Notes: generated by a model not told the origin, from the sequence alone. A stretch of DNA of 64,000 nt from an uncultured Alphaproteobacteria bacterium (GCA_902518895.1 CABYHL010000002.1:8680-72679); one strand, 5' to 3'; shown: positions 5,667 through 16,373, counted from the first letter of the stretch. A program made the numbers and translations.

Positions 5667-6665
5667 TTAGCTAAATTCTTTTCTGATATTTTCTATAAAT
5701 AAATGAACATTTTTTTCTGGAGTATTTTTATTAATTCCATGTCCAAGGCCACAAATCCAGCCATTAAGCTTTTCAATTGATTTCATTTTTTTAATAAAAT
5801 CTTTTAAATCATTAAGAAATGTATCTGTTTCACTTAACATTAATTGTTCATTGAAATTTCCTTGAATAAATCCATGTTTTTGATTTTGAAACATAGATTT
5901 AAGATCTATTGTGTGATCATAGCCAAAACCTGCAAAAGGAAAACTGATGATGGAATTTAGATCTGTTAAACTCTTACCTCTTGAATAATAGCCAAGTTTA
6001 TTTGGAAAAGAAATTGCAATCTCTTCCAAAAATTTTGAATAAATTTCATGAAAATTTTTTTTATCTAAATCATACAAGGAGCTATCAAAAATCATGACAA
6101 GTTCAACACCTGCATCTAATTGTAATTGAATATTTTTCTTAAGAAGGGGTAAAAGAATTTTTGAAATAAATTCTAAATTCATTTTAGTGTCGATTAAATC
6201 AGAGTTATTATTTCCAAATGCATATTTTGATAATGTCCAAGGTCCACCAACAAATCCAATTAAACTTTTATTATTTGGCAATTTCTCTTTTGTTATTTTT
6301 ATAGCTTCAAATTGAAATTGCATATGCTCAATGCCACGATCAATATTACTATAATCATTAATGTTTTCTGAATTTATATAAGAATTAAATTTCGGTCCTG
6401 GGTCAAACTTTAATTCTAAACCAAGTCCCTCCAAAATAAATAAAATATCACTGAATAAAATTGCAATATCGTAATCAAACTCTTGTATTGGACCAAAAGC
6501 AACTTCTGCAGCTAGATCCGGAGTTTTACAAAGTTCTTCAAAAGTATATTTTTCTTTGAGCTTAAGATAATGCGAATGGTACCTTCCAGCCTGTCTCATG
6601 AACCAAATGGGTGGTGTTTTTTGAATATTTCTTTTGAGAGCATTTTCGAATAAGATATTTGTCAT
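5667..6665 (-). CDS. hemE: Uroporphyrinogen decarboxylase
   Basis: 'PPIWFMRQAGRYHSHY' motif. The ORF track start is 6695. I prefer the ATG at 6665, which forms an ATGA overlap with the stop of the upstream hemC-like gene. Confidence 0.88.
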   Translation of the reverse strand: MTNILFENALKRNIQKTPPIWFMRQAGRYHSHYLKLKEKYTFEELCKTPDLAAEVAFGPIQEFDYDIAILFSDILFILEGLGLELKFDPGPKFNSYINSENINDYSNIDRGIEHMQFQFEAIKITKEKLPNNKSLIGFVGGPWTLSKYAFGNNNSDLIDTKMNLEFISKILLPLLKKNIQLQLDAGVELVMIFDSSLYDLDKKNFHEIYSKFLEEIAISFPNKLGYYSRGKSLTDLNSIISFPFAGFGYDHTIDLKSMFQNQKHGFIQGNFNEQLMLSETDTFLNDLKDFIKKMKSIEKLNGWICGLGHGINKNTPEKNVHLFIENIRKEFS

Positions 6666-8176
6666 TTTTTGGCTTTTAGTAATTTTTTCTTCCAACTATC
6701 ATAAGATAGCTCAACAAAAAGATTTTTATCATTCCCTAATATTTTACTAATTTCATTGTAAGTATTTCCTGGGCCACAAAAATGATATTTTTCTATAATT
6801 TTAGGATATTTATCAATACTCGCCTTAAAAGCTGAGCTGCTCATCCAATAAAAGTACTTTTTCTTTTCTATATCTATTTCAAAATCGATAGACTCCAATT
6901 GATACGTTTCAATTTTATTTTTTATCAAACTTTCAGGAGATTGAGAATGAGTTAACTTAACCCAAGGATTATTTGTAAGTGAATTAATATCTTTATCAAA
7001 ATCCTCACCCAAACCATCTGAAGTTCCATTAACCCAAATACCTCTTTCAGATAAATTTTTCCATGTTCTTAAACCACTAGTCCAAATAACATTATTTGAT
7101 TTGATTTTTGACCTATCTGGGATTGAGCTAATTCGTGAAACATAAATACATTTATTTTGCAAATTATTTATATCATCGACATTTTCATTTATTTGTTTTC
7201 TAGAAAATATTTTATAATTTTTTAAATTTTCAGGATAAATTTCATCTGTTGTATTACTAGAAAAACTTATATCTTTTGGATCAATAAAATCCCAGCTCTC
7301 AAAATGATTGCCATTTTCATCTTCACCTCTTTTAGATACAACTAATCCTAATTTATGAGAGATGTAAGATACTCCTATTTTTTGGTGACATCCTCCTCCA
7401 TAATTTTTTAAAATATTTCTTTCTTGAATTACATTCGAATAATCTTTGGAAAAATTAATATCATTTAAAATTTCGTTTAGTTTATTATCTTTAATTCTTG
7501 TTTCAATCGCTAGAGCTCCTTGTCCAGGAGAACAAGGGTTTATTGACAATGGTAAAACAGACCATAGACATACGTTAATATATTTTTTCAGAGTTGTTTT
7601 TAATTCATTAAATTCAGAATAATTATTTAAAAGTAATCTATCAATTGCTGCCTTAGCAACAATAAAACCATCACTATTAGGATCTTCCAAAAATTTTTTA
7701 AATCTAGTGGGTATGTTACCTCTTATATTTTCAAAGTAAACTTCATCAAACTTATGTGGAAGATAATTTTCAATAAAATTTTCTAAATTATATTGTCTTC
7801 GAGGTGAGGAGCAAAGAATAGTAATTTTCTTACTATCCATTTTTTTATTTTTTTTTAAGAATAATATATCTCTTTTGTCGGCTCGTTTTAATGTTGCAGC
7901 TATTTTGGTTTTATCACCAACTTCAATTGGAAGATCCTTCCAAGAATGAACAATTATATCACATTTGTTATTTATTAATTCATCTCTTAAATCATTAGTA
8001 AAAACACCTTCTGTTGGCATTTCAGAAAGAGGTGTTTTTAGATCTTTATCTCCTGAAGTACTTCTTGTTAAAAATTCTATTTCTACAAAAGGATATTTTG
8101 ATTGCAAATAGTCGGAAAATTCACGTGCTTGAATTATTGCCAAGTCACTTTTTCTAGATAAAATTCTTATTTTCAT
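6662..8176 (-). CDS. hemC: Hydroxymethylbilane synthase (porphobilinogen deaminase) with about 190-aa C-terminal extension (candidate HemD fusion)
   Basis: N-terminus 'MKIRILSRKSDLAIIQA', 'VHSWKDLP', and the cofactor-Cys region 'GGGCHQKIG' are HemC signatures. At 504 aa it is about 190 aa longer than a standalone HemC. Confidence 0.8.
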   Translation of the reverse strand: MKIRILSRKSDLAIIQAREFSDYLQSKYPFVEIEFLTRSTSGDKDLKTPLSEMPTEGVFTNDLRDELINNKCDIIVHSWKDLPIEVGDKTKIAATLKRADKRDILFLKKNKKMDSKKITILCSSPRRQYNLENFIENYLPHKFDEVYFENIRGNIPTRFKKFLEDPNSDGFIVAKAAIDRLLLNNYSEFNELKTTLKKYINVCLWSVLPLSINPCSPGQGALAIETRIKDNKLNEILNDINFSKDYSNVIQERNILKNYGGGCHQKIGVSYISHKLGLVVSKRGEDENGNHFESWDFIDPKDISFSSNTTDEIYPENLKNYKIFSRKQINENVDDINNLQNKCIYVSRISSIPDRSKIKSNNVIWTSGLRTWKNLSERGIWVNGTSDGLGEDFDKDINSLTNNPWVKLTHSQSPESLIKNKIETYQLESIDFEIDIEKKKYFYWMSSSAFKASIDKYPKIIEKYHFCGPGNTYNEISKILGNDKNLFVELSYDSWKKKLLKAKK

Positions 8177-8837: not shown

Positions 8838-10073
8838 ATGCAATACAAAAATTTCTTTAAATCTGAATTGAAAAATTTAAAAGATCAGGGTCTTTATAGG
8901 GACTTTAGAAATATAGACAGACCTATAAGAAGTTTTCCAAATGCAGATGAAAGTTTCAAAAATAAAGAAAGAGAAGTAGAGGTTTGGTGTTCTAATGACT
9001 ATCTGAACATGAGTCAGCACCCAGAAGTCGTAAATGAAATTGTAAAAACACTACTTGAATATGGATCTGGTTCAGGTGGAACAAGAAATATTTCTGGTAC
9101 ATCAACCTATCATACTGAACTTGAAAAAAAACTGGCAAACGTTCATAATAAAGAGGCGGCATTAGTTTTTGCTTCTGCTTATACAGCAAACCAATCTACT
9201 TTATGGACTTTAGGAAAAAAAATTAAAGATATTGAGATATTTTCTGATGAATTAAATCATGCATCTTTAATACAAGGTATTAAGAATAGTGGAGCTAAGT
9301 GTCATATATTTAAACACAATGACATTGATCATTTAGAACAGTTACTAAAAGAGTCAAATGTAGATAGTCCTAAGTTAATCGTTTTTGAAAGTTTATACTC
9401 TATGGAAGGTATAAGATCGCCTATAGTTAAAATTGTAGAGTTAGCAAAAAAATATAACTGTATGACATATCTGGATGAAGTTCATTCAGTTGGACTTTAC
9501 GGTAAAGAAGGTAAAGGTATTGCAGTAGAAATGGGAGTTGAAGATAAAATAGATATTATTAATGGAACTTTAGCAAAAGCATATGGTCAAATGGGAGGTT
9601 ATATTGCAGCTAGTTCAGAAATAATTGACTATATTAGAAGTTTCTCTCCAGGTTTTATTTTTACAACTTCAATCTGCCCATCAATTGCTGCAGGAGCAGC
9701 TAAAGCAATAGATATTGTTTCTCTGGCAGAACAACTAAGAATAAGAATAAAAGAAAACGCAGCTTTAATAAGAGAAAATTTAGATTCTTTAGCAATCCCT
9801 TATTTGGATACAAATTCTCATATTGTAGCAGTATTAATTAATGATCCTTTTTTATGCAAAAAAGTGTCTAAAGATTTAATTGATGATCATGGTATTTATG
9901 TACAACCAATTTTTTTCCCAACTGTACCAAAAGGTTTAGAAAGACTAAGAATAACTGTTACCCCAAAACATAGAAAAGAGCATATCGAAAATATGATTAA
10001 GGCTCTTGATACAGTTTGGTCTAAAAATAATTTACCAAGAAAAAATATTAATAAATTTACAGCAAATATTTAA
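8838..10073 (+). CDS. hemA: 5-aminolevulinate synthase
   Basis: 411-aa class-II aminotransferase fold. Motifs '[12 protein letters not shown]', '[10 protein letters not shown]' and 'GTLAKAYG' (PLP Lys) match ALAS of alphaproteobacteria. Confidence 0.9.
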
Positions 10074-10972
10074 GTTTTAATATTAACATCAATCTGCCTA
10101 GCAGCAAAACCATAATAAACTACAGCTAAAGTTATTATAAAACCTCCAATTATTACAGTTGTACTTGGTACTTCATTTATTCCAAAAATTGGAAGCCAAA
10201 CCCATAGAACTCCTCCAACAACTTCCATTAACGATAAAAGTGCTAGCTCAGCTGAGGGTAAGTATTTTGCTCCAAGACTGTAAAGTATTAAGCCGGCAGC
10301 AACAATTATTCCATGAAGTATACTCAAATAACTATTTATTTCAGGCATCAGAATGAAAGGGTCAAAAGAGAAGCCTAAAATAAAGAACGCAAATATTGTA
10401 CAAAATAGTCCCGCTAAAACAACTGTTGTGAATTTTGGTGTTTCAGGTTTCCATCTTATTGTTACCGTGTATAATGCAAAACCAGTTGCAGAAATAAATC
10501 CTATTATTGCACCTAAAGCAGTTCCAGAAATACTGTCATTTATAATCATTACGCACACACCTATAAATGCTACAACCATTGCAATTAATGTTGATCTTTT
10601 TAGTATTTCACCAAGAACAAAATAACCAACAATGGCTGCAATAAAAGGCATCGCTGCTAACATAAATAATGTTACGGCAGCCGTAGTCATAGTAATAGAA
10701 AAAATGAACCCAGTAAAAGCTGTTGCTAGAAATAAACCTCCAAGTATAGATGGTATTCCTATTTTGAGAAAATTTTTATAAAAAGCAAAACCTTCCCGAA
10801 AAAATAAATATATAAGAAGAATAATTGAAATTGTTAAACCTCTATAAAATAAATATTGAAAAACATATTGATGACCATCCACCATATATCTAACGGTCAA
10901 CGCTCCAAAACTCCAAAAAATTCCAGCAAGAAATACTACACTAAAAGCATATAAATAAGAATTTTGACTCAT
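10070..10972 (-). CDS. EamA/DMT-family transporter
   Basis: 300 aa, about 10 TM helices, two-fold EamA-like organisation. Its stop overlaps the ALAS stop (TTAA). Confidence 0.8.
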
Positions 10973-11146
10973 TATTAAAAGGTCAAATCATTAAATTTAA
11001 TAAAAGTAAATTAATATTTTAGTTATTTATTTGAATACCTGTTGTTTTACTTCCTGAAATCTTAAAATTAACTTTATTATCATCTTTTCTTTGTATTTCA
11101 GATACGGTTGACATTTTGCAACTGTAAATAAAAAGAAATAAAAAAA

Positions 11147-11650
11147 TTATTGGCAACTGCCTATAGAACCAAGAGCACATTTTTTACCATCTATCCATAT
11201 AGCATTTGACAAATTTGCTTCATCAAAAATTGCACCTGAAATATTAGCACCAAGTAGATTTGCCTCATATAAATTTGCACCTTTAAAAGTCGCTCCAAAG
11301 AGATTAGATCCCTCAAAATTTACTTTTGCAAGGTTTGCATTATCAAAGTTAGCATTATTACAATTTGCTCCTTGTAAATTTGAAGCATATAAATTTGAAT
11401 TACTGAAATTTGAGAAGATAAAATTCCCAATAGATAAATTTGAATTATTAAGTTGAGATTTTTCAAAATTAGATAAAGATAAATTAACTCCTGACATTTG
11501 AGAATTTGCCAAACCAGTACCAGAAAGATCGAGATTTTCTACAAAATTACAATTAGTCCAATCTACCTCATTTGCTGGTTGATCACTGCAAGCAGCAAAT
11601 ACAGGATGTGAGCTAAAGAAACTTAAAACAAATAAAATTAAAAATCTCAT
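11147..11650 (-). CDS. Secreted pentapeptide-repeat protein
   Basis: Signal peptide 'MRFLILFVLSFFSSHPVFA' followed by continuous A(D/N)LxX pentapeptide repeats ('ANLYEANLLGANISGAIFDEANLSNA'). Confidence 0.8.
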   Translation of the reverse strand: MRFLILFVLSFFSSHPVFAACSDQPANEVDWTNCNFVENLDLSGTGLANSQMSGVNLSLSNFEKSQLNNSNLSIGNFIFSNFSNSNLYASNLQGANCNNANFDNANLAKVNFEGSNLFGATFKGANLYEANLLGANISGAIFDEANLSNAIWIDGKKCALGSIGSCQ

Positions 11651-11692
11651 ATTTAATTTTTTATGATTAGTTTATGTTAAATTTAAGGCAAA

Positions 11693-13459
11693 TTAGCGTG
11701 AAGTGAGTTTTAATTCAATCCTTCTATTCTGTTGTAGATCACTCTCAGTTTCTCCATTACTGATAGGATAAAACTCTCCATATCCTGCAGATGCTAATCT
11801 ATTTGGAGGAAAACCTAGATTAAGAAGAAGTTTTAGCACTGTATTAGCTCTAGCTGAAGATAGTTCCCAGTTAGATGGATATCTTATTGTCTGTATAGGT
11901 CGTTTATCAGTATGTCCTTCTACCATAATAATCCAGTCAATATCGGAGGGGATATCATTAGTAGTCTCTTTTAAAGTAAGGCCAATTTCACTTAACTTTT
12001 CTTTACCAGATAGCTGTAAATCTGCTGAAGCAGAATCAAATAATAGCTCTGATTCAAAAATAAATCTATCTCCTACAATTTTAATGTCTTTTCTATCACC
12101 TAAAATAGATTGTAATTTTCCAAAAAACTCAGATCTATATTTTTGGAGCTCAAATACTTTAGATGTAAGGGCTTTGTTTAATTTTTCTCCAAGTACTTCA
12201 ATTTCTAAATCCTTAATTAAAGCCTGACTTTCACTCGCTTCTAAAGCACTATTCAGTAAAGCTATTTCTTTTTGTAAAGTATCAATTTGATTAGAGAGAA
12301 TTTCTACCTGTTCTAATGTTTTTGAAGCTTGTATTTCCATTTTTTCAATTTCTTCAAGTGACGTTTCCATTTGTGCTTGATTCTCTTCTTCTAAAGAAAC
12401 AATTTGATTTTGGAGGAGTTCAAGTTTTTCAAGTTGTTGTTTTTGTTTTTCTTCAGACAAAGACAGTACATTATTTAATTCAGAAATTTTTCCACGAAGA
12501 TTGAAAATAGTATTATCTTTCTGTAATAAATCTTTATTTAATCTTGCTAGTTCTTCATTTTTAAATCTAATTGCATCAAGTTGCTCATTAAGTGATGCAT
12601 CTTTTAAGCCAAGACTATCATTAATCTCTAAAAGATCATTCATAAGTTCTTGATATTGAGATATTTGACTTTGTAGTTCTTCATCTCTCAATGAAAGTTC
12701 AATGTTAGTCTTTTCTAATTCATCATTTAAACTTAGAAGCTTTTCATTTTTATTTTTAATTGCAAGTAACTGCTCTTGAATTCCACCTTCCTCTAAACCC
12801 AAACTTTCGTTAATGGCCATTAAATTTTCATTCTTCTCATTTAATTCTGCTATTGTAGATTTGAGAGATTTTTCACTTTCAAGTAGTTTAAAATTAGCAT
12901 TATCTAATTCTTGATTAAGTATTTTTAGTTGATCAATTCTTGTTGCAAGTGCTTTATTAATTCGTTCTCCGAGTCCCTCGGTTTCAAGTAAAGTAATTTC
13001 TTGTCCTTCATAAGTTTCTAATGCATTTGCAACTATTCTCAGTTCTTTTAAAAGACTACTAATTTGATCGGATAAAGCTATTATATTTTGTTCCTGAACA
13101 AATATTTCTGATCGTTTTTTTGCAACATCAGTTTGTAATTGCTCACTTAATAATTGCTCACTTTGTAAATTTAATTCTGTATCTTCAAGTTTTTTCTCAG
13201 TTTCAGAAAGAGTTGAAAGAGCTTCTTCTTTGTCTTTAGTTTCAATAACAAGTATTTTAGATAATTCATTTATTTTTGTTCTTAAATCTTGAAGCGCCTT
13301 ATCTCGGCCAGATATAGCATCACTAAGATATATTTGTGAAACAGTAAAAACCATTAGCACAAATATGATTACTATTAAAAGAGTAGCTAGAACATCGACA
13401 AAACCAGGCCAAATATTTGTTGTATCAGCAAGTCTATTTCTTAAAGACCTAGTAGACAT
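11693..13459 (-). CDS. MotB/OmpA-like peptidoglycan-anchored protein with about 400-aa coiled coil
   Basis: 588 aa. N-terminus 'WPGFVDVLATLLIVIIFVLMVF' is a single TM with a conserved Asp. Residues about 45-445 are an E/K/L/Q heptad-rich coil. C-terminal OmpA-like domain 'VEGHTDKRPI...NWELSSARANTV...NRRIELKL'. Confidence 0.8.
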   Translation of the reverse strand: MSTRSLRNRLADTTNIWPGFVDVLATLLIVIIFVLMVFTVSQIYLSDAISGRDKALQDLRTKINELSKILVIETKDKEEALSTLSETEKKLEDTELNLQSEQLLSEQLQTDVAKKRSEIFVQEQNIIALSDQISSLLKELRIVANALETYEGQEITLLETEGLGERINKALATRIDQLKILNQELDNANFKLLESEKSLKSTIAELNEKNENLMAINESLGLEEGGIQEQLLAIKNKNEKLLSLNDELEKTNIELSLRDEELQSQISQYQELMNDLLEINDSLGLKDASLNEQLDAIRFKNEELARLNKDLLQKDNTIFNLRGKISELNNVLSLSEEKQKQQLEKLELLQNQIVSLEEENQAQMETSLEEIEKMEIQASKTLEQVEILSNQIDTLQKEIALLNSALEASESQALIKDLEIEVLGEKLNKALTSKVFELQKYRSEFFGKLQSILGDRKDIKIVGDRFIFESELLFDSASADLQLSGKEKLSEIGLTLKETTNDIPSDIDWIIMVEGHTDKRPIQTIRYPSNWELSSARANTVLKLLLNLGFPPNRLASAGYGEFYPISNGETESDLQQNRRIELKLTSR

Positions 13460-13461
13460 TA

Positions 13462-14487
13462 TTATTTTTTAATTTTCTTTAGTTCTATTTCAATTTTCTT
13501 AAAATATTCTTTAATTTTTTTTGATTCTAATATTCCATTTTTGCTTAAAGCTTCTGTAAGGTTCATTAGTGTAGATTGTGTGTTTAATTGTGAAGATAAG
13601 AAATTTGATAATTGTTTATCAAGATTTGAAGAGTTGAAATTGATTTTGTTAAGTATTTCATTGAACTTCTCTAAATTGTTTGAAATTTTAGTTTGATTGT
13701 CAGACGATTTTTTAAAAGCATTTAAGAGGTTTTCTAAGTTATCATAGATTTTTTGAATTGCTTCAACTGTAGGCTTATCTTCTACTTTAGAAAAATCTGG
13801 AGAAGAATTGCTATTAAGGATTTTTTCAAAGTATTGACTAAATTTATTTTGAGCTTGTCCAAGATTTAAATCAAGTAATCCTAATATTAAAGAGCCAGCT
13901 AAACCTAATAAAGAACTGCTAAATGCAATACTCATTCCTTCTAGTGGAGCATTTAATCCATCTTTAAGAGAATTAAAAAAACCTGCAACATTTGTATCAT
14001 CTATACCTAGGCCGCTAATAACATTGCCAACAGATCCAATGGTTTTTAGAAGTCCCCAGAAAGTTCCTAGGAGTCCTAAAAAGACTAGCAAACCTACCAG
14101 GTAACGAGAAGTTTCTCTTATGCTTATCAAAGTCATATCAGAATTCTCTATTAATCTATTTATTGATGAACTTTTAAAAACAAATTTTCCGTCAAGATTT
14201 TTTAATTCAAGAGAAATATTTTTGTCTTGCCCTCTTAAATTAGAGAATGCTTCTATAGAATTTGTAATATTAAAGTTCGAGAAAGATATATATTTATAAT
14301 TCAAGTTAATGAGATGAAAAAAATTAAATATAATACCAATTACTAAAGCCAATAATATTATAATGTTAATAAAGATATTTGATAAAAAAGCATTTTGTAA
14401 AACTGGATATAATAAAACAACAATAAGAAAGACAGCAACCAAGAATATTGATGATCTAATTATGTAATTATTTAAGGATAGTGCCAT
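13462..14487 (-). CDS. MotA/TolQ/ExbB-family proton-channel protein with C-terminal helical tail
   Basis: 341 aa. Two N-terminal TMs, then the channel signature 'LVGLLVFLGLLGTFWGLLKTIG ... GMSIAFSSSLLGLAGSLILGLL', then about 125 aa of N/K/S/L-rich predicted coil. The stop is 2 bp from the next gene's start. Confidence 0.7.
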   Translation of the reverse strand: MALSLNNYIIRSSIFLVAVFLIVVLLYPVLQNAFLSNIFINIIILLALVIGIIFNFFHLINLNYKYISFSNFNITNSIEAFSNLRGQDKNISLELKNLDGKFVFKSSSINRLIENSDMTLISIRETSRYLVGLLVFLGLLGTFWGLLKTIGSVGNVISGLGIDDTNVAGFFNSLKDGLNAPLEGMSIAFSSSLLGLAGSLILGLLDLNLGQAQNKFSQYFEKILNSNSSPDFSKVEDKPTVEAIQKIYDNLENLLNAFKKSSDNQTKISNNLEKFNEILNKINFNSSNLDKQLSNFLSSQLNTQSTLMNLTEALSKNGILESKKIKEYFKKIEIELKKIKK

Positions 14488-14537
14488 AAATAAAAGATTA
14501 TATTACCTATCTTGGAAATTCAATAAATATTGACTGT

Positions 14538-15722
14538 TTAGTTGTATATATAATTTCTTGTGAGAGGCAGATTGTTAATATTCTTTGCTATTTGTATTTG
14601 AAAAACAACATTACCCATATTTACAAAGGAATACTTACTTGCCAATAGATAAAACTCCCACATTCTAAAGAAACGTTGATCAAACATCTTTATAATTTTA
14701 TCTTTATTTTTAATAACATTTTGATACCACTTTGAAAGAGTGTGAGCGTAATGTAGTCTTAAAACCTCAACATCTGTTACATTTATATTAAGTTTTTGTG
14801 TTTCATTCATTACCTCAGATAATGATGGAATATAACCACCAGGGAAAATATATTTTCTTATCCAAGGGCTAGTAGCTGTTGGTTTACCCCTTTGACCAAT
14901 AGTATGCAAAAGAAAAACACCATTTTCTTTAAGAATATCATTAGCTTTACTTAAATAAGTTTTGAAGTATTTAATACCAACATGCTCAAACATTCCAACT
15001 GATACTATACGATCATATTTTTCAGTCTCATTTCTATAATCTTGTAGTGCAAATGAAACTTTATCACTCAAACCTTCTTTTTGTGCTCGTTCAGATGCAG
15101 TTTTAAATTGATTTTCTGAAAGTGTAATTCCTTTAACTTTGGCGCCAGTAGATTTAGCTATTTCAATTGCCATTCCTCCCCAACCACACCCAATATCAAG
15201 AACATCCATATTTTCAGTAATTTGAAGTTTTTTAATTATATGTTCTTTTTTATCTTTCTGTGCTTGATCTAAACTCATATTGGGATTGTGAAAATATGCA
15301 CAAGAATATTGCATATCCTGATCAAGAAATAATTTATATAAATCTTCATTTATATCGTAGTGGTGTGCTACATTTTTTTTTGAATTTACAAGCTGATTAA
15401 TCTGCTGAAATGGCATAAAAATAGAAGATAAATATTCATAAAATTTATAAAACTTATTGTTAGAAATAAAGTCATCGTAACAATTAGTTATTAAATTAAG
15501 AAAGTCTTCTATAGTGCCTTTTTCAATAACTAACTCCTCATTCATATATGCTTCACCTATATGAAGATTAGGGTTTAGGAATAGTTTTCTTTCAATAGAT
15601 TTGTTTTTTAATCTTATACAAACGTGTGGATTTGAATTTCCAAATTTATAAATCTTGTCATTAGAATCTATAATTTCTAATGTTCCATCAAAATTAAGTT
15701 TTTTCAGTATACTGAATAACAT
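14538..15722 (-). CDS. cfa: Cyclopropane-fatty-acyl-phospholipid synthase family methyltransferase
   Basis: 394 aa with SAM motif 'VLDIGCGWGGMA' and CMAS-type flanking regions ('YSCAYF', 'WEFYL'). Confidence 0.88.
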   Translation of the reverse strand: MLFSILKKLNFDGTLEIIDSNDKIYKFGNSNPHVCIRLKNKSIERKLFLNPNLHIGEAYMNEELVIEKGTIEDFLNLITNCYDDFISNNKFYKFYEYLSSIFMPFQQINQLVNSKKNVAHHYDINEDLYKLFLDQDMQYSCAYFHNPNMSLDQAQKDKKEHIIKKLQITENMDVLDIGCGWGGMAIEIAKSTGAKVKGITLSENQFKTASERAQKEGLSDKVSFALQDYRNETEKYDRIVSVGMFEHVGIKYFKTYLSKANDILKENGVFLLHTIGQRGKPTATSPWIRKYIFPGGYIPSLSEVMNETQKLNINVTDVEVLRLHYAHTLSKWYQNVIKNKDKIIKMFDQRFFRMWEFYLLASKYSFVNMGNVVFQIQIAKNINNLPLTRNYIYN

Positions 15723-15808
15723 TTTTTTTTATTTTAAGAAAAACGTCACTTATGTCAATAACTCTAAATTATTAACATTTGATGAGAAAATAATTTGTAG
15801 AGATTAAC

Positions 15809-16033
15809 TTAAGCAGCAATGCGACGATTTTTTTGAGCTTCTTTTTCTTTTTTAAGCTCTTTTTCGTCAATATACGCAACATCACAGTGACTCTGACAAT
15901 AAGGCTTCCCAGCAACGGTATCAGCTTCACAAAAATGAAAATCTTTTTCTTGTGGATCTCCAATTGGCCATTGGCAACTTGAGAAACTGTGCATCACACT
16001 GTTTTGTTTAAAATAGTTTTTTAATATAGACAT
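15809..16033 (-). CDS. Small protein carrying only the GcrA C-terminal Cys-rich motif
   Basis: 'CQWPIGDPQEKDFHFCEADTVAGKPYCQSHCDVAY' matches the conserved C-terminal block of GcrA cell-cycle regulators. The ATG at 16033 (74 aa) is preferred over the track start at 16093. No N-terminal GcrA DNA-binding region is present. Confidence 0.55.
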   Translation of the reverse strand: MSILKNYFKQNSVMHSFSSCQWPIGDPQEKDFHFCEADTVAGKPYCQSHCDVAYIDEKELKKEKEAQKNRRIAA

Positions 16034-16190
16034 AATAATTTTTCTATTAAATTCGAGGTAGTTTATATTTATGAAAAAACCAGTATTCAACATTAAATAT
16101 AAAAAAGTTGTTAATTATCAATATGTTAGTATCTTAATCTTTTTGACCTACTATATGTTGATACATAATTTATAAGAAAAACGAATCGGT

Positions 16191-16373
16191 TTATCGAAAA
16201 AATAAAATTATAAACAATAGTGCCAAAAAAAACAGATAGGATTTGATTACAAAACTTTTAGTTAATTTGGATTTAGGAGGTTTTCTCAAATATACAAAGA
16301 AAACAATAGTACTCCAAAATAATAAAAGTATTACCCAGCCTGTTAAAAATGCGTAATAAAAATCGACAGACAT
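16191..16373 (-). CDS. Hypothetical small membrane protein (2 TM)
   Basis: 60-aa ORF with two hydrophobic helices, 20 bp downstream of msrA on the same strand. No recognisable family. Confidence 0.35.
   Translation of the reverse strand: MSVDFYYAFLTGWVILLLFWSTIVFFVYLRKPPKSKLTKSFVIKSYLFFLALLFIILFFR

What the first reader, a model, noticed from the sequence alone, without database searches (positions are those of the whole stretch)
11147..14487. Orphan stator-like module: MotA/ExbB-type channel plus MotB-type anchor with a giant coiled coil, plus a secreted pentapeptide-repeat protein
Seen in the sequence. A 341-aa protein has the MotA/TolQ/ExbB channel signature ('LGLLGTFWGLLKTIG ... GMSIAFSSSLLGLAGSLILGLL') and a helical tail of about 125 aa. 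Two base pairs downstream is a 588-aa protein with a MotB-like N-terminal TM bearing the conserved Asp ('WPGFVDVLATLL'). It then has about 400 residues of uninterrupted heptad-rich coil and a C-terminal OmpA-type peptidoglycan-binding domain. Another 42 bp downstream is a signal-peptide pentapeptide-repeat protein. No flagellar, TolR/TolA/TolB/Pal, TonB/ExbD or gliding genes are nearby, and SAR11-like organisms are considered non-motile. At 0.15 nm per helical residue, a 400-aa coil would be about 60 nm, well beyond a typical periplasm width. The rod must therefore fold back, lie along the wall or oligomerise. The protein combines TolA-like (long helix), Pal-like (OmpA) and TolR/MotB-like (Asp-TM) elements in one chain. 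The layout is the inverse of Zorya, where the A subunit carries the long tail. This looks like an uncharacterised PMF-driven envelope machine.
Basis: partly seen in the sequence, partly recalled or inferred. Interest (0 to 1): 0.7.

Follow-up and report, generated by a model that had tools for sequence, protein, structure and literature searches.

The report
Conserved alphaproteobacterial stator-like motor pair
Two adjacent SAR11-type genes encode a non-flagellar relative of the flagellar, Tol/Ton and Zorya ion-driven membrane motors, inherited across Alphaproteobacteria, whose wall-anchoring subunit carries a very long rod that varies in length only in whole coiled-coil repeats; its function is unknown.

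Summary
Gene A (341 aa) is a divergent MotA/ExbB/TolQ/ZorA-type channel subunit: it falls below the Pfam threshold, but its predicted fold matches only A subunits of 5:2 motors, with ZorA and ExbB first. Gene B (588 aa) has an Asp-bearing TM, a ~400-residue coil and an OmpA domain. It passes the curated cut-off of NCBIfam NF006543 (PRK09039, "peptidoglycan-binding protein").

The A-B pair is not an orphan. It is vertically inherited in Alphaproteobacteria (Rhodospirillales, Sinorhizobium, Acetobacteraceae), usually in an efp-suhB-…-A-B-…-rpmE housekeeping context. The "motAB" genes of non-flagellated Komagataeibacter hansenii very probably belong to the same family. Published work there reports changes in cell length and colony spreading, and polar localisation.

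The pentapeptide gene is lineage-specific and not part of the unit.

New here: the spacing between the TM Asp and the C-terminal domain ranges from 166 to 489 residues, yet 22 of 28 distinct spacings share one value modulo 7. The rod is therefore free in length but locked in heptad phase.

Most likely this is a PMF-driven 5:2 complex anchored to peptidoglycan, of unknown housekeeping function. It is neither flagellar, nor Tol/Ton, nor Zorya defence.

The parts
13462..14487 (-). Gene A: 341-aa channel (A) subunit of the MotA/ExbB/TolQ/ZorA superfamily, 4 TM, N-in/C-in
   Evidence: ORF. PADLOC ZorA HMMs E=7e-13 and Pfam PF01618 at 16.5 bits, below threshold. AF2 pLDDT 88.5. All 50 top Foldseek PDB hits are 5:2 A subunits, with ZorA and ExbB first. 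2094 representatives at 50% clustering.
14035..14103 (-). A TM3 (residues 129-151) with the invariant GLxGTFxGL motif (G138 L139 G141 T142 F143 G145 L146)
   Evidence: Invariant columns in the 53-sequence alignment A1. The Pfam MotA_ExbB match covers residues 132-155.
13867..13938 (-). A TM4 (residues 184-207) with invariant M185 F189 S192 G195 L196 (P181 lies just before it)
   Evidence: Alignment A1; hydropathy.
13465..13866 (-). A cytoplasmic helical tail (residues 208-341). It is shorter than the family consensus and lacks the terminal ELRxEIRLLxRTI motif.
   Evidence: AF2 helices 238-316 and 323-340. Alignment A1 shows the C-terminal motif missing in the window protein. The charge distribution supports a cytoplasmic location.
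11693..13459 (-). Gene B: 588-aa anchor (B) subunit, a member of NCBIfam NF006543 (PRK09039.1-2)
   Evidence: 357.7 bits against a cut-off of 305. PADLOC ZorB3 E=5e-22.
13328..13411 (-). B transmembrane helix (residues 17-44) with WPGFVD and Asp22
   Evidence: The W[PA]GF[VI]D motif is present in the B proteins extracted from the fetched loci by a search that required that motif (about 80, near-identical SAG copies included). It is also present in all 120 non-SAR11 homologues tested independently. W17 P18 G19 F20 V21 D22 are invariant in alignments A3 and A4.
12101..13327 (-). B periplasmic segmented coiled-coil rod (residues 45-453), with hinges at 153-159, 220-224 and 283-288
   Evidence: AF2 secondary structure. 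Heptad phase track. Heptad-multiple tandem-repeat indels in orthologues. Spacing modulo 7 statistics.
11696..12082 (-). B OmpA/MotB-type peptidoglycan-binding domain (residues 460-588)
   Evidence: PF00691 E=1.2e-15. The closest solved chains are the MotS, MotB and PomB C-terminal domains, with 9ljk MotS at E=3e-17. AF2 gives an alpha/beta fold.
11147..11650 (-). Gene C: exported pentapeptide-repeat protein (167 aa). It is a lineage-specific neighbour, not a core part.
   Evidence: PF00805 E=1.2e-21. N-terminal hydrophobic segment, residues 3-22. Conserved Cys after the signal peptide and a conserved C-terminal Cys pair in 13 orthologues. Syntenic in L001-L079. Absent in L089/L090 and in all non-SAR11 loci.

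Best explanation
A and B are the SAR11-type versions of a conserved, chromosomally inherited alphaproteobacterial two-gene module. The module most likely assembles as an A5B2 ion-driven (PMF) complex of the MotAB/ExbBD/TolQR/ZorAB kind.

Shown from sequence and models:
- A has the A-subunit fold, with invariant polar and Gly/Pro residues in its last two TM helices.
- B has a single TM with an invariant Asp near the cytoplasmic face, a long periplasmic coiled-coil rod and a MotB-type peptidoglycan-binding domain.
- The two genes are 2 nt apart here, and they are adjacent in every locus examined except one, where an IS element lies between them.
- The rod is a segmented coiled coil. Its length differs three-fold between lineages, but nearly always by whole heptads.

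Inferred:
- Protonation and deprotonation of Asp22 drives A5 around a B2 axle.
- B2 is held on the wall by a parallel dimeric coiled coil, and that coil needs its heptad seam kept in register from TM to OmpA domain.
- As in ZorA, the cytoplasmic helical tail of A is the moving output or input element.
- The rod is longer than a usual inner-membrane-to-wall distance. It must therefore span an unusually wide (possibly polar) periplasm, or bend at its Gly hinges and lie obliquely under the wall.

Inferred weakly:
- The cellular role is housekeeping, linked to envelope, cell length, division or polarity. This rests on the conserved housekeeping synteny, on retention in a streamlined genome, and on the Komagataeibacter phenotypes (elongated cells on overexpression, polar GFP foci, altered colony spreading and cellulose texture).

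The pentapeptide protein is an exported neighbour acquired within the SAR11-type lineage.
For: Fold and family of A:
- AF2 pLDDT 88.5.
- All 50 top Foldseek hits are ZorA, ExbB, TolQ or MotA chains.
- PADLOC ZorA HMMs give E about 1e-12.
- 42 of 53 family members hit PF01618, and about half hit the NCBIfam ZorA models.
- Invariant G138 L139 G141 T142 F143 G145 L146 and P181 M185 F189 S192 G195 L196.

Family of B:
- NF006543 at 357.7 bits, above the cut-off of 305.
- The OmpA domain is closest to the MotS, MotB and PomB peptidoglycan-binding domains.
- WPGFVD with the Asp is invariant in the aligned orthologues and in all 120 distant homologues.

Linkage and inheritance:
- A-B adjacency with efp-suhB upstream and rpmE downstream in Rhodospirillales-type contigs, Sinorhizobium meliloti and Acetobacteraceae-type contigs.
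- CFA synthase-A-B-(C)-EamA in 79 SAR11-type loci.

Rod:
- No proline in the coil.
- Four long helices with three Gly hinges.
- Indels are tandem 7-, 21- and 28-residue units.
- 22 of 28 distinct Asp-to-RYRSEFF spacings (166 to 489 residues) are 5 mod 7, P about 3e-13 under a uniform null.
- Indels occur in one helix without compensation in the neighbouring helix. This argues against a fixed antiparallel hairpin.

Function lead, K. hansenii 'motA' (348 aa) and 'motB' (321 aa):
- 4 TM plus an OmpA architecture, no flagellum, polar GFP, elongated cells (PMC6570709).
- Disruption gives the opposite cellulose phenotype (PMC7347698).
- The primer-encoded termini match the family.
- A 24-nt primer match retrieves contigs whose A and B score 427 and 386 bits against the family HMMs.
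Against: - No experiment or multimer model shows a 5:2 assembly, ion flow or rotation for this family.
- A is below the Pfam and NCBIfam curated thresholds for every named A-subunit family, and the Foldseek E-values are only about 1e-3.
- The B model is a monomer of modest confidence (pLDDT 70, pTM 0.34), so the rod geometry is inferred.
- Six of 28 spacings break the modulo-7 rule. The length classes are not phylogenetically independent.
- The Komagataeibacter link rests on primer termini and a 24-nt match to related contigs, not on the strain's own gene sequences. Its phenotypes come from overexpression and are indirect.
- In one genome an IS element sits between A and B, and in a sibling contig B is fragmentary. 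The pair is therefore dispensable in some lineages.
Confidence: 0.65

Rival explanations
1. It is a Zorya-type anti-phage system, or a remnant of one. ZorAB-like A and B would sense envelope perturbation and signal through the A tail to an effector.
For: The best profile matches of A are ZorA models (PADLOC E=7e-13; NCBIfam ZorA_2 and ZorA_4 in about half of the family). B matches ZorB3 at E=5e-22. ZorA chains top the fold search. A has a cytoplasmic helical tail and a small beta-hairpin in the cytoplasmic loop.
Against: - There is no ZorC/D, ZorE or ZorF/G-like gene. The neighbours are a CFA synthase, an EamA transporter and a pentapeptide protein with no PADLOC hit.
- NCBIfam ZorA_2 gives 11.9 bits against a cut-off of 100.
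- The tail is about 134 aa, whereas the ZorA profiles are 480-1060 positions long and ZorA tail-deletion constructs remove residues 359-592 or 435-729.
- The housekeeping synteny (efp-suhB-A-B-rpmE) is conserved across orders. Defence islands do not behave that way.
- Synteny is fixed in 79 SAR11-type loci.
Confidence: 0.05
2. It is a relic or moonlighting flagellar stator (MotAB), as the PGAP and JGI names 'flagellar motor protein MotA' and 'chemotaxis protein MotB' suggest.
For: Source names. A MotA-like 4-TM topology. B's peptidoglycan-binding domain is closest to those of MotS, MotB and PomB.
Against: - TIGR03818 MotA gives 12.1 bits against a cut-off of 303.8, and the MotB, MotS and MotD models match only the C-terminal domain, far below their cut-offs.
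- The cytoplasmic TM2-TM3 loop is only about 65 residues.
- A 400-residue rod replaces the short plug and linker.
- The family occurs in non-flagellated Komagataeibacter.
- From my own knowledge, not tested here: SAR11 has no flagellar genes, and flagellated Sinorhizobium has separate motA and motB genes.
Confidence: 0.03
3. It is a Tol/Ton-like energiser. The A/B motor would pull on or remodel a periplasmic or outer-membrane partner through the rod. Candidates are the exported pentapeptide protein in SAR11 or the secreted Pro/Ala-rich OmpA-like protein encoded upstream in other Alphaproteobacteria.
For: ExbB and TolQ are among the best fold matches. The TM3 motif GLLGTFWGL resembles, from my memory, the TolQ/ExbB motif. 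A secreted Pro/Ala-rich protein with an OmpA-like C-terminus is encoded just upstream of A in Rhodospirillales- and Acetobacteraceae-type loci. The pentapeptide gene is more conserved than A or B in the distant SAR11-type loci.
Against: B carries its own wall anchor and has no TolR/ExbD-type periplasmic domain. No TolA- or TonB-like gene is adjacent. Neither candidate partner is universal: the pentapeptide gene is absent in L089/L090, and the Pro-rich protein is absent next to the S. meliloti and SAR11 pairs.
Confidence: 0.12
4. It is mainly a passive structural strut or tether between the inner membrane and the wall, a spacer, with A as a membrane chaperone and no energy transduction.
For: The rod dominates the protein. 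Its length is variable but its phase is preserved, as expected for a structural coiled coil. SAR11 is reported to have a very large periplasm (my recollection of Zhao et al. 2017, AEM 83:e02807-16; the paper was not held).
Against: The Asp in B's TM and the polar and Gly/Pro residues of A's TM3 and TM4 are invariant across proteins that share only about 30-40% identity. That is hard to explain without ion conduction or gating. The obligatory A-B adjacency fits a stator-type complex.
Confidence: 0.12

Closest known systems
Zorya ZorAB (anti-phage 5:2 motor; PDB 8qyd, 8qyk, 8vvn)
   Same: Best profile and fold matches for A. A has a cytoplasmic helical tail after the last TM. B has a single Asp-bearing TM plus a peptidoglycan-binding domain (ZorB3 HMM E=5e-22). 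The genes are adjacent in A-then-B order.
   Different: There are no effector genes (ZorC/D/E/F/G). The A tail is about 134 aa instead of several hundred. B carries a rod of 166 to 489 residues that ZorB lacks (the ZorB profiles are 215-293 positions long). The pair is housekeeping and vertically inherited rather than island-borne. It scores below the curated NCBIfam ZorA cut-off.
Flagellar stator MotAB / PomAB / MotPS
   Same: 4-TM A subunit. B has a TM Asp and an OmpA-like peptidoglycan-binding domain, and the closest solved domains are MotS 9ljk, MotB 6ysf and PomB 3wpw. The presumed 5:2 rotary mechanism.
   Different: It fails the MotA equivalog model. The cytoplasmic loop is short, without the torque-generating interface described for flagellar stators (PMC12505986). 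A coiled-coil rod replaces the plug and linker. It is present in non-flagellated organisms.
TolQR-TolA-Pal and ExbBD-TonB
   Same: A's fold and its TM3/TM4 motifs. The idea of coupling PMF to the envelope through a long periplasmic element.
   Different: B is not a TolR/ExbD-type protein. The long element and the wall-binding domain are fused into B instead of being separate TolA/TonB and Pal proteins. A has 4 TMs rather than 3. There are no Tol or Ton genes beside it.
[quoted passage not shown]
   Same: This is the family the window genes belong to. It has the same architecture, the same invariant motifs and the same heptad phase of the rod.
   Different: The SAR11-type B rod is about twice the usual length (spacing 411-488 residues against mostly 215-271). 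The SAR11-type A tail is truncated. The usual efp-suhB and rpmE context, and the upstream Pro-rich OmpA-like gene, are replaced by CFA synthase upstream and a pentapeptide gene plus EamA downstream.

Membership tests
MotA/TolQ/ExbB superfamily (Pfam PF01618; A subunit of 5:2 motors) | Match to PF01618 at or above the gathering score | tested here: not met
   16.5 bits against 22.9 for the window protein. 42 of 53 relatives match at E<0.01, best 5e-6.
MotA/TolQ/ExbB superfamily (Pfam PF01618; A subunit of 5:2 motors) | A-subunit fold (TM hairpin with long helices extending into the cytoplasm) | tested here: met
   AF2 pLDDT 88.5. All 50 best Foldseek PDB hits are ZorA, ExbB, TolQ or MotA chains, with probability up to 1.0, E from 1e-3 and TM-score up to 0.58 on the target.
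MotA/TolQ/ExbB superfamily (Pfam PF01618; A subunit of 5:2 motors) | Adjacent B subunit with a single TM carrying a conserved acidic residue | tested here: met
   B starts 2 nt after A. Asp22 is invariant in the aligned orthologues and in all 120 distant homologues.
MotA/TolQ/ExbB superfamily (Pfam PF01618; A subunit of 5:2 motors) | 5:2 stoichiometry and ion-driven rotation | not testable with these tools
   Only single-chain prediction was available.
Flagellar stator MotAB | Match to the MotA equivalog model TIGR03818 and to the MotB equivalog models above cut-off | tested here: not met
   MotA1 scores 12.1 bits against 303.8. The MotB, MotS and MotD models score 37-100 bits against cut-offs of 250-312, on the C-terminal domain only.
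Flagellar stator MotAB | Flagellar genes in the neighbourhood or genome | tested here: inconclusive
   None among the genes scanned beside the pair, and no stator paralogue in the 64-kb window. The rest of the window and the rest of the genome were not examined.
Zorya (ZorAB plus effectors) | ZorA model above the curated cut-off | tested here: not met
   NCBIfam ZorA_2 scores 11.9 bits against 100. The PADLOC ZorA HMMs give E=7e-13, but only over residues 129-205.
Zorya (ZorAB plus effectors) | Effector genes (ZorC/ZorD, ZorE or ZorF/ZorG) next to ZorAB | tested here: not met
   The neighbours are a CFA synthase, a pentapeptide protein (no PADLOC hit) and EamA. Other lineages have housekeeping neighbours.
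Zorya (ZorAB plus effectors) | Very long ZorA tail (hundreds of residues) | tested here: not met
   The tail is 134 residues. The ZorA profiles are 480-1060 positions long.
Tol-Pal / TonB-ExbBD | TolR/ExbD-type B subunit and an adjacent TolA/TonB partner | tested here: not met
   B's only domain hit is OmpA. No such gene flanks the pair.
NCBIfam NF006543 (PRK09039.1-2) peptidoglycan-binding protein | Whole-protein score at or above the curated cut-off (305 bits) | tested here: met
   357.7 bits. The B proteins of distant loci score 407-490 bits.
NCBIfam NF006543 (PRK09039.1-2) peptidoglycan-binding protein | Pairing with the specific A-family gene immediately upstream | tested here: met
   A-B adjacency in every locus examined. 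The one exception is L086, where an IS element is inserted between them.

The most novel reading that the evidence does not exclude
This would be a housekeeping, vertically inherited sister of Zorya ZorAB, conserved across Alphaproteobacteria and kept even in the minimal SAR11 genome.

It would be a PMF-driven 5:2 rotary unit whose wall-anchored B dimer carries a heptad-phase-locked but length-adjustable coiled-coil strut, matched to the width of the periplasm. Its rotating cytoplasmic A tail would couple envelope state to cell elongation, division or polarity.

That would be a new physiological class of 5:2 motor. It could also be the kind of cellular system from which the Zorya defence system was recruited.
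Probability: 0.3. Interest if true: 0.8.

Novelty: new variant of a known kind. Interest (0 to 1): 0.55.

Why it matters
Ion-driven 5:2 motors are known to power flagella, Ton/Tol transport and division, gliding with type IX secretion, and Zorya defence.

A further clade, conserved through Alphaproteobacteria and retained in SAR11, the most abundant and one of the most streamlined free-living bacteria, implies an important cellular task that is still unassigned.

The family is mislabelled in databases as flagellar MotA/MotB, which can create false inferences of motility in non-motile marine bacteria.

The heptad-phase-locked, length-variable rod gives a directly testable design rule: insertions of 7n residues should be tolerated and other insertions should not. 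It also suggests a possible molecular ruler for periplasm width.

Tried and rejected
- PDB sequence search with A alone found only coiled-coil noise. With the family profile, ZorA appeared only at E=0.18. Sequence alone does not place A, and the fold search was needed.
- The single genome-contig scan, run with B as query, was filled by near-identical SAR11-type single-cell genomes. I could not make a taxon-by-taxon survey of complete genomes. Distribution outside SAR11 rests on metagenome contigs, one mislabelled S. meliloti replicon and source names.
- A tblastn search of B against phage genomes gave only generic OmpA domains, so there is no phage link.
- The promoter and terminator scan of 10000-16200 found fewer sites than the shuffled controls and is uninformative about operon structure.
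- Tandem Repeats Finder found no strong DNA repeat inside the window's own B gene. The repeat expansions are seen in relatives.
- The SAR11 cryo-tomography paper (PMC5244296) is not held. The 'wide periplasm' statement is my recollection and remains untested here.
- Literature searches for a mechanistic study of this family found none beyond the Komagataeibacter papers.
- A fixed antiparallel hairpin for the two equal-length middle helices (160-219 and 225-282) was considered and rejected. Relatives insert 28-56 residues in one of them without compensation in the other.

Full report
**1. The observation**

The window carries three co-oriented minus-strand ORFs at the stated coordinates:
- A, 13462-14487, 341 aa
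- B, 11693-13459, 588 aa
- C, 11147-11650, 167 aa

A's stop and B's start are 2 nt apart. B and C are 42 nt apart. All the quoted peptide motifs are present.

A has four hydrophobic segments and a 134-residue C-terminal tail. The charge distribution places the 61-127 loop and the tail in the cytoplasm, so the topology is N-in, C-in and MotA-like.

B has one TM (residues about 17-44) with Asp22. It has no proline between residues 19 and 503, and it has a C-terminal OmpA domain (PF00691, E=1.2e-15).

C has an N-terminal hydrophobic signal segment followed by pentapeptide repeats (PF00805, E=1.2e-21).

The flanking genes are a cyclopropane-fatty-acid-type synthase (PF02353, E=8e-92) and an EamA transporter. 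No paralogue of A, B or C lies elsewhere in the 64 kb.

**2. What A is**

A is a very divergent channel subunit. Pfam MotA_ExbB reaches only 16.5 bits, below the gathering score of 22.9. NCBIfam MotA1 and ZorA_2 are near noise. The PADLOC ZorA profiles match residues 129-205 at E about 1e-12.

A search of 1.84 billion representative proteins found 2094 relatives at E≤1e-3 (928 at E≤1e-10). Those listed are mostly 350-400 aa long.

A 53-sequence alignment (A1) shows:
- an invariant TM3 motif: G138 L139 G141 T142 F143 G145 L146
- an invariant set in and just before TM4: P181 M185 F189 S192 G195 L196
- a conserved tail, PAYxxALLEQTAE … ELRxEIRLLxRTI, whose last part the window protein lacks

Of the 53 members, 42 hit PF01618 weakly and about half hit the NCBIfam ZorA models.

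AlphaFold2 on this alignment gave a confident model (pLDDT 88.5). In Foldseek against the PDB, all 50 best matches are A subunits of 5:2 motors. ZorA (8vvn, 8qyk, 8qyd) and ExbB lead, followed by TolQ and MotA. The E-values are modest (about 1e-3), but the list contains nothing else.

**3. What B is**

B passes the curated cut-off of NCBIfam NF006543, PRK09039.1-2 'peptidoglycan-binding protein' (357.7 bits against 305). Its C-terminal domain is closest to the solved peptidoglycan-binding domains of MotS, MotB and PomB (9ljk, E=3e-17). PADLOC ZorB3 matches at E=5e-22.

WPGFVD, with the Asp, is invariant in the aligned orthologues. A W[PA]GF[VI]D motif is found in all 120 non-SAR11 homologues returned by a profile search.

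**4. Distribution and context**

[quoted passage not shown] The organism labels are almost all Alphaproteobacteria: Rhodospirillales, Magnetospirillum, Arenibaculum, Sinorhizobium and Shinella.

Outside the SAR11-type clade, the order is repeatedly efp – inositol monophosphatase – [secreted Pro/Ala-rich protein with an OmpA-like end] – A – B – … – rpmE. S. meliloti has suhB – A – B – ABC transporter – rpmE. This is a housekeeping, vertically inherited context and not a defence island.

In 79 SAR11-type loci (B 59-97% identical), the order is CFA synthase – A – B – C – EamA – ALA synthase. A further relative, whose A is 56% identical, has exactly this order but no pentapeptide gene: only 77 nt separate B from EamA. 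C is therefore a lineage-specific insertion and not part of the conserved unit.

C keeps four conserved cysteines and a signal peptide, so it is an exported protein.

**5. The rod**

AlphaFold2 (monomer, pLDDT 70) predicts four long helices: 18-152, 160-219, 225-282 and 289-453. They are broken at conserved Gly motifs: ETEGLG, SLGLEEGG and SLGLKD. The OmpA fold follows. A heptad-phase scan shows about eight phase flips. The rod is therefore segmented rather than 'uninterrupted'.

Among SAR11-type orthologues, B is 567, 581, 588, 595, 616, 623, 630, 637, 644, 651 or 658 aa long. All of these differ by whole heptads. The single exception is 633 aa. The differences are tandem 7-, 21- and 28-residue units in the middle of the rod, for example LEQTNVE repeated.

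I measured the spacing from the TM Asp to the conserved RYRSEFF motif. It takes 28 distinct values from 166 to 489 residues across the family, and 22 of them are congruent to 5 modulo 7. Under a uniform null this has P about 3e-13. The classes are not independent, but each new length needs at least one indel.

Insertions occur in one of the two equal-length middle helices without compensation in the other. This argues against a fixed antiparallel hairpin and for a parallel coiled coil whose seam must stay in register from TM to anchor.

At about 0.15 nm per residue, the spacings correspond to about 25-73 nm, and to about 62 nm in the window protein. That exceeds a usual inner-membrane-to-wall distance. 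The rod must therefore do one of the following:
- bend at its hinges
- run obliquely
- span an unusually wide periplasm

SAR11 is reported to have a wide periplasm. That is my recollection of Zhao et al. 2017; the paper was not available.

**6. Experimental lead**

Komagataeibacter hansenii is a non-flagellated member of the Acetobacteraceae. It has 'motA' (348 aa, 4 TM) and 'motB' (321 aa, one TM plus OmpA) as its only motility-like genes. Published findings are:
- overexpression gave elongated cells, faster colony spreading and looser cellulose
- GFP fusions were polar (PMC6570709)
- disruption gave denser cellulose (PMC7347698)

The published primers encode VTRPTTY, MARRSR and …EFRLTDR-stop. 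These match the family termini MTRPTAY, MARR… and RRIEFRLTDR.

The 24-nt 3' primer core retrieves metagenome contigs with the order suhB – Pro-rich OmpA-like – A (390 aa) – B (335 aa). Those proteins score 427 and 386 bits against the family HMMs, and their Asp-to-RYRSEFF spacing is 166.

The Komagataeibacter 'MotAB' therefore very probably belongs to this family. The strain's own gene sequences were not examined.

**7. Interpretation**

The best-supported reading is a PMF-driven A5B2 complex of the stator kind, anchored to peptidoglycan by B. Its ZorA-like cytoplasmic tail on A would be the mobile element. Its role would be housekeeping and related to the envelope, cell length or polarity.

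- Shown: folds, motifs, linkage, inheritance and rod phase.
- Inferred: stoichiometry, ion flow, rotation and cellular role.

Flagellar, Tol/Ton and Zorya membership each fail at least one defining test. A purely passive strut is unlikely, given the invariant Asp and channel residues, but it is not excluded.

**8. Novelty**

The kind of machine is known. The family is catalogued (NF006543) and has been touched experimentally under a misleading name. No mechanistic description was found in the held literature. A recent survey of non-flagellar stator homologues simply notes many of unknown function (PMC12505986).

The following are new observations:
- the SAR11-type version, with a double-length rod, a truncated A tail and a changed context
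- the family-wide heptad phase lock

I rate it a new variant of a known kind, of moderate to good interest.

Noticed in passing
window 15809-16093 (-): A 94-aa ORF ends in a Cys-rich motif. Its orthologue in L089/L090 (called as 74 aa) has a Pfam GcrA hit (PF07750). It would be a much shortened GcrA-like cell-cycle regulator, lying just upstream of the CFA synthase-A-B cluster.
   Followed up: no
window 6662-8176 (-): A 504-aa ORF that, by eye, looks like porphobilinogen deaminase fused to a second haem-pathway domain. It sits next to a cytochrome b561-like ORF and ALA synthase. The possible gene fusion was not checked with any profile.
   Followed up: no
L045, L046, L055-L075 (B genes), compared with window 12100-13330: The B rod is length-polymorphic among closely related single-cell genomes, through tandem repeats of 7, 21 and 28 residues. 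One example is LEQTNVE repeated up to five times. This could serve as a strain marker and a natural experiment on rod length.
   Followed up: yes
L080 6664-7908, L083 5795-6940, L086 5957-6946, L091 1711-2547, L092 5910-6782, L095 3023-3823: In Rhodospirillales- and Acetobacteraceae-type loci, a secreted low-complexity Pro/Ala-rich protein with an OmpA-like C-terminal domain is encoded immediately upstream of A. It may be a third component. It is absent beside the S. meliloti and SAR11-type pairs.
   Followed up: partly
L086 8158-8985 and L087 8326-8964: In one 4.56-Mb genome, a DDE transposase is inserted between A and B. In a sibling contig, the ORF in B's place is only 212 aa with no OmpA hit. 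The pair can be split or decay in some lineages.
   Followed up: no
L089 and L090, 8754-8831: A SAR11-type relative has the same CFA synthase-A-B-EamA-ALA synthase order but lacks the pentapeptide gene entirely. In the more distant SAR11-type loci, the pentapeptide protein is more conserved (69-87%) than A (56-67%) or B (59-68%).
   Followed up: partly
window 11147-11650 (-) and its orthologues: The pentapeptide protein has a Cys directly after the predicted signal peptide (VFA-AC here, YA-GC in relatives). This fits both a signal peptidase I site and a lipobox-like pattern. There are three further conserved cysteines, including a C-terminal CxLGSIGxC. It could be a lipoprotein or be disulfide-capped.
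   Followed up: partly
database names of relatives: PGAP and JGI label members of this non-flagellar family 'flagellar motor protein MotA' and 'chemotaxis protein MotB'. This could lead to false predictions of motility in metagenome-assembled genomes.
   Followed up: partly
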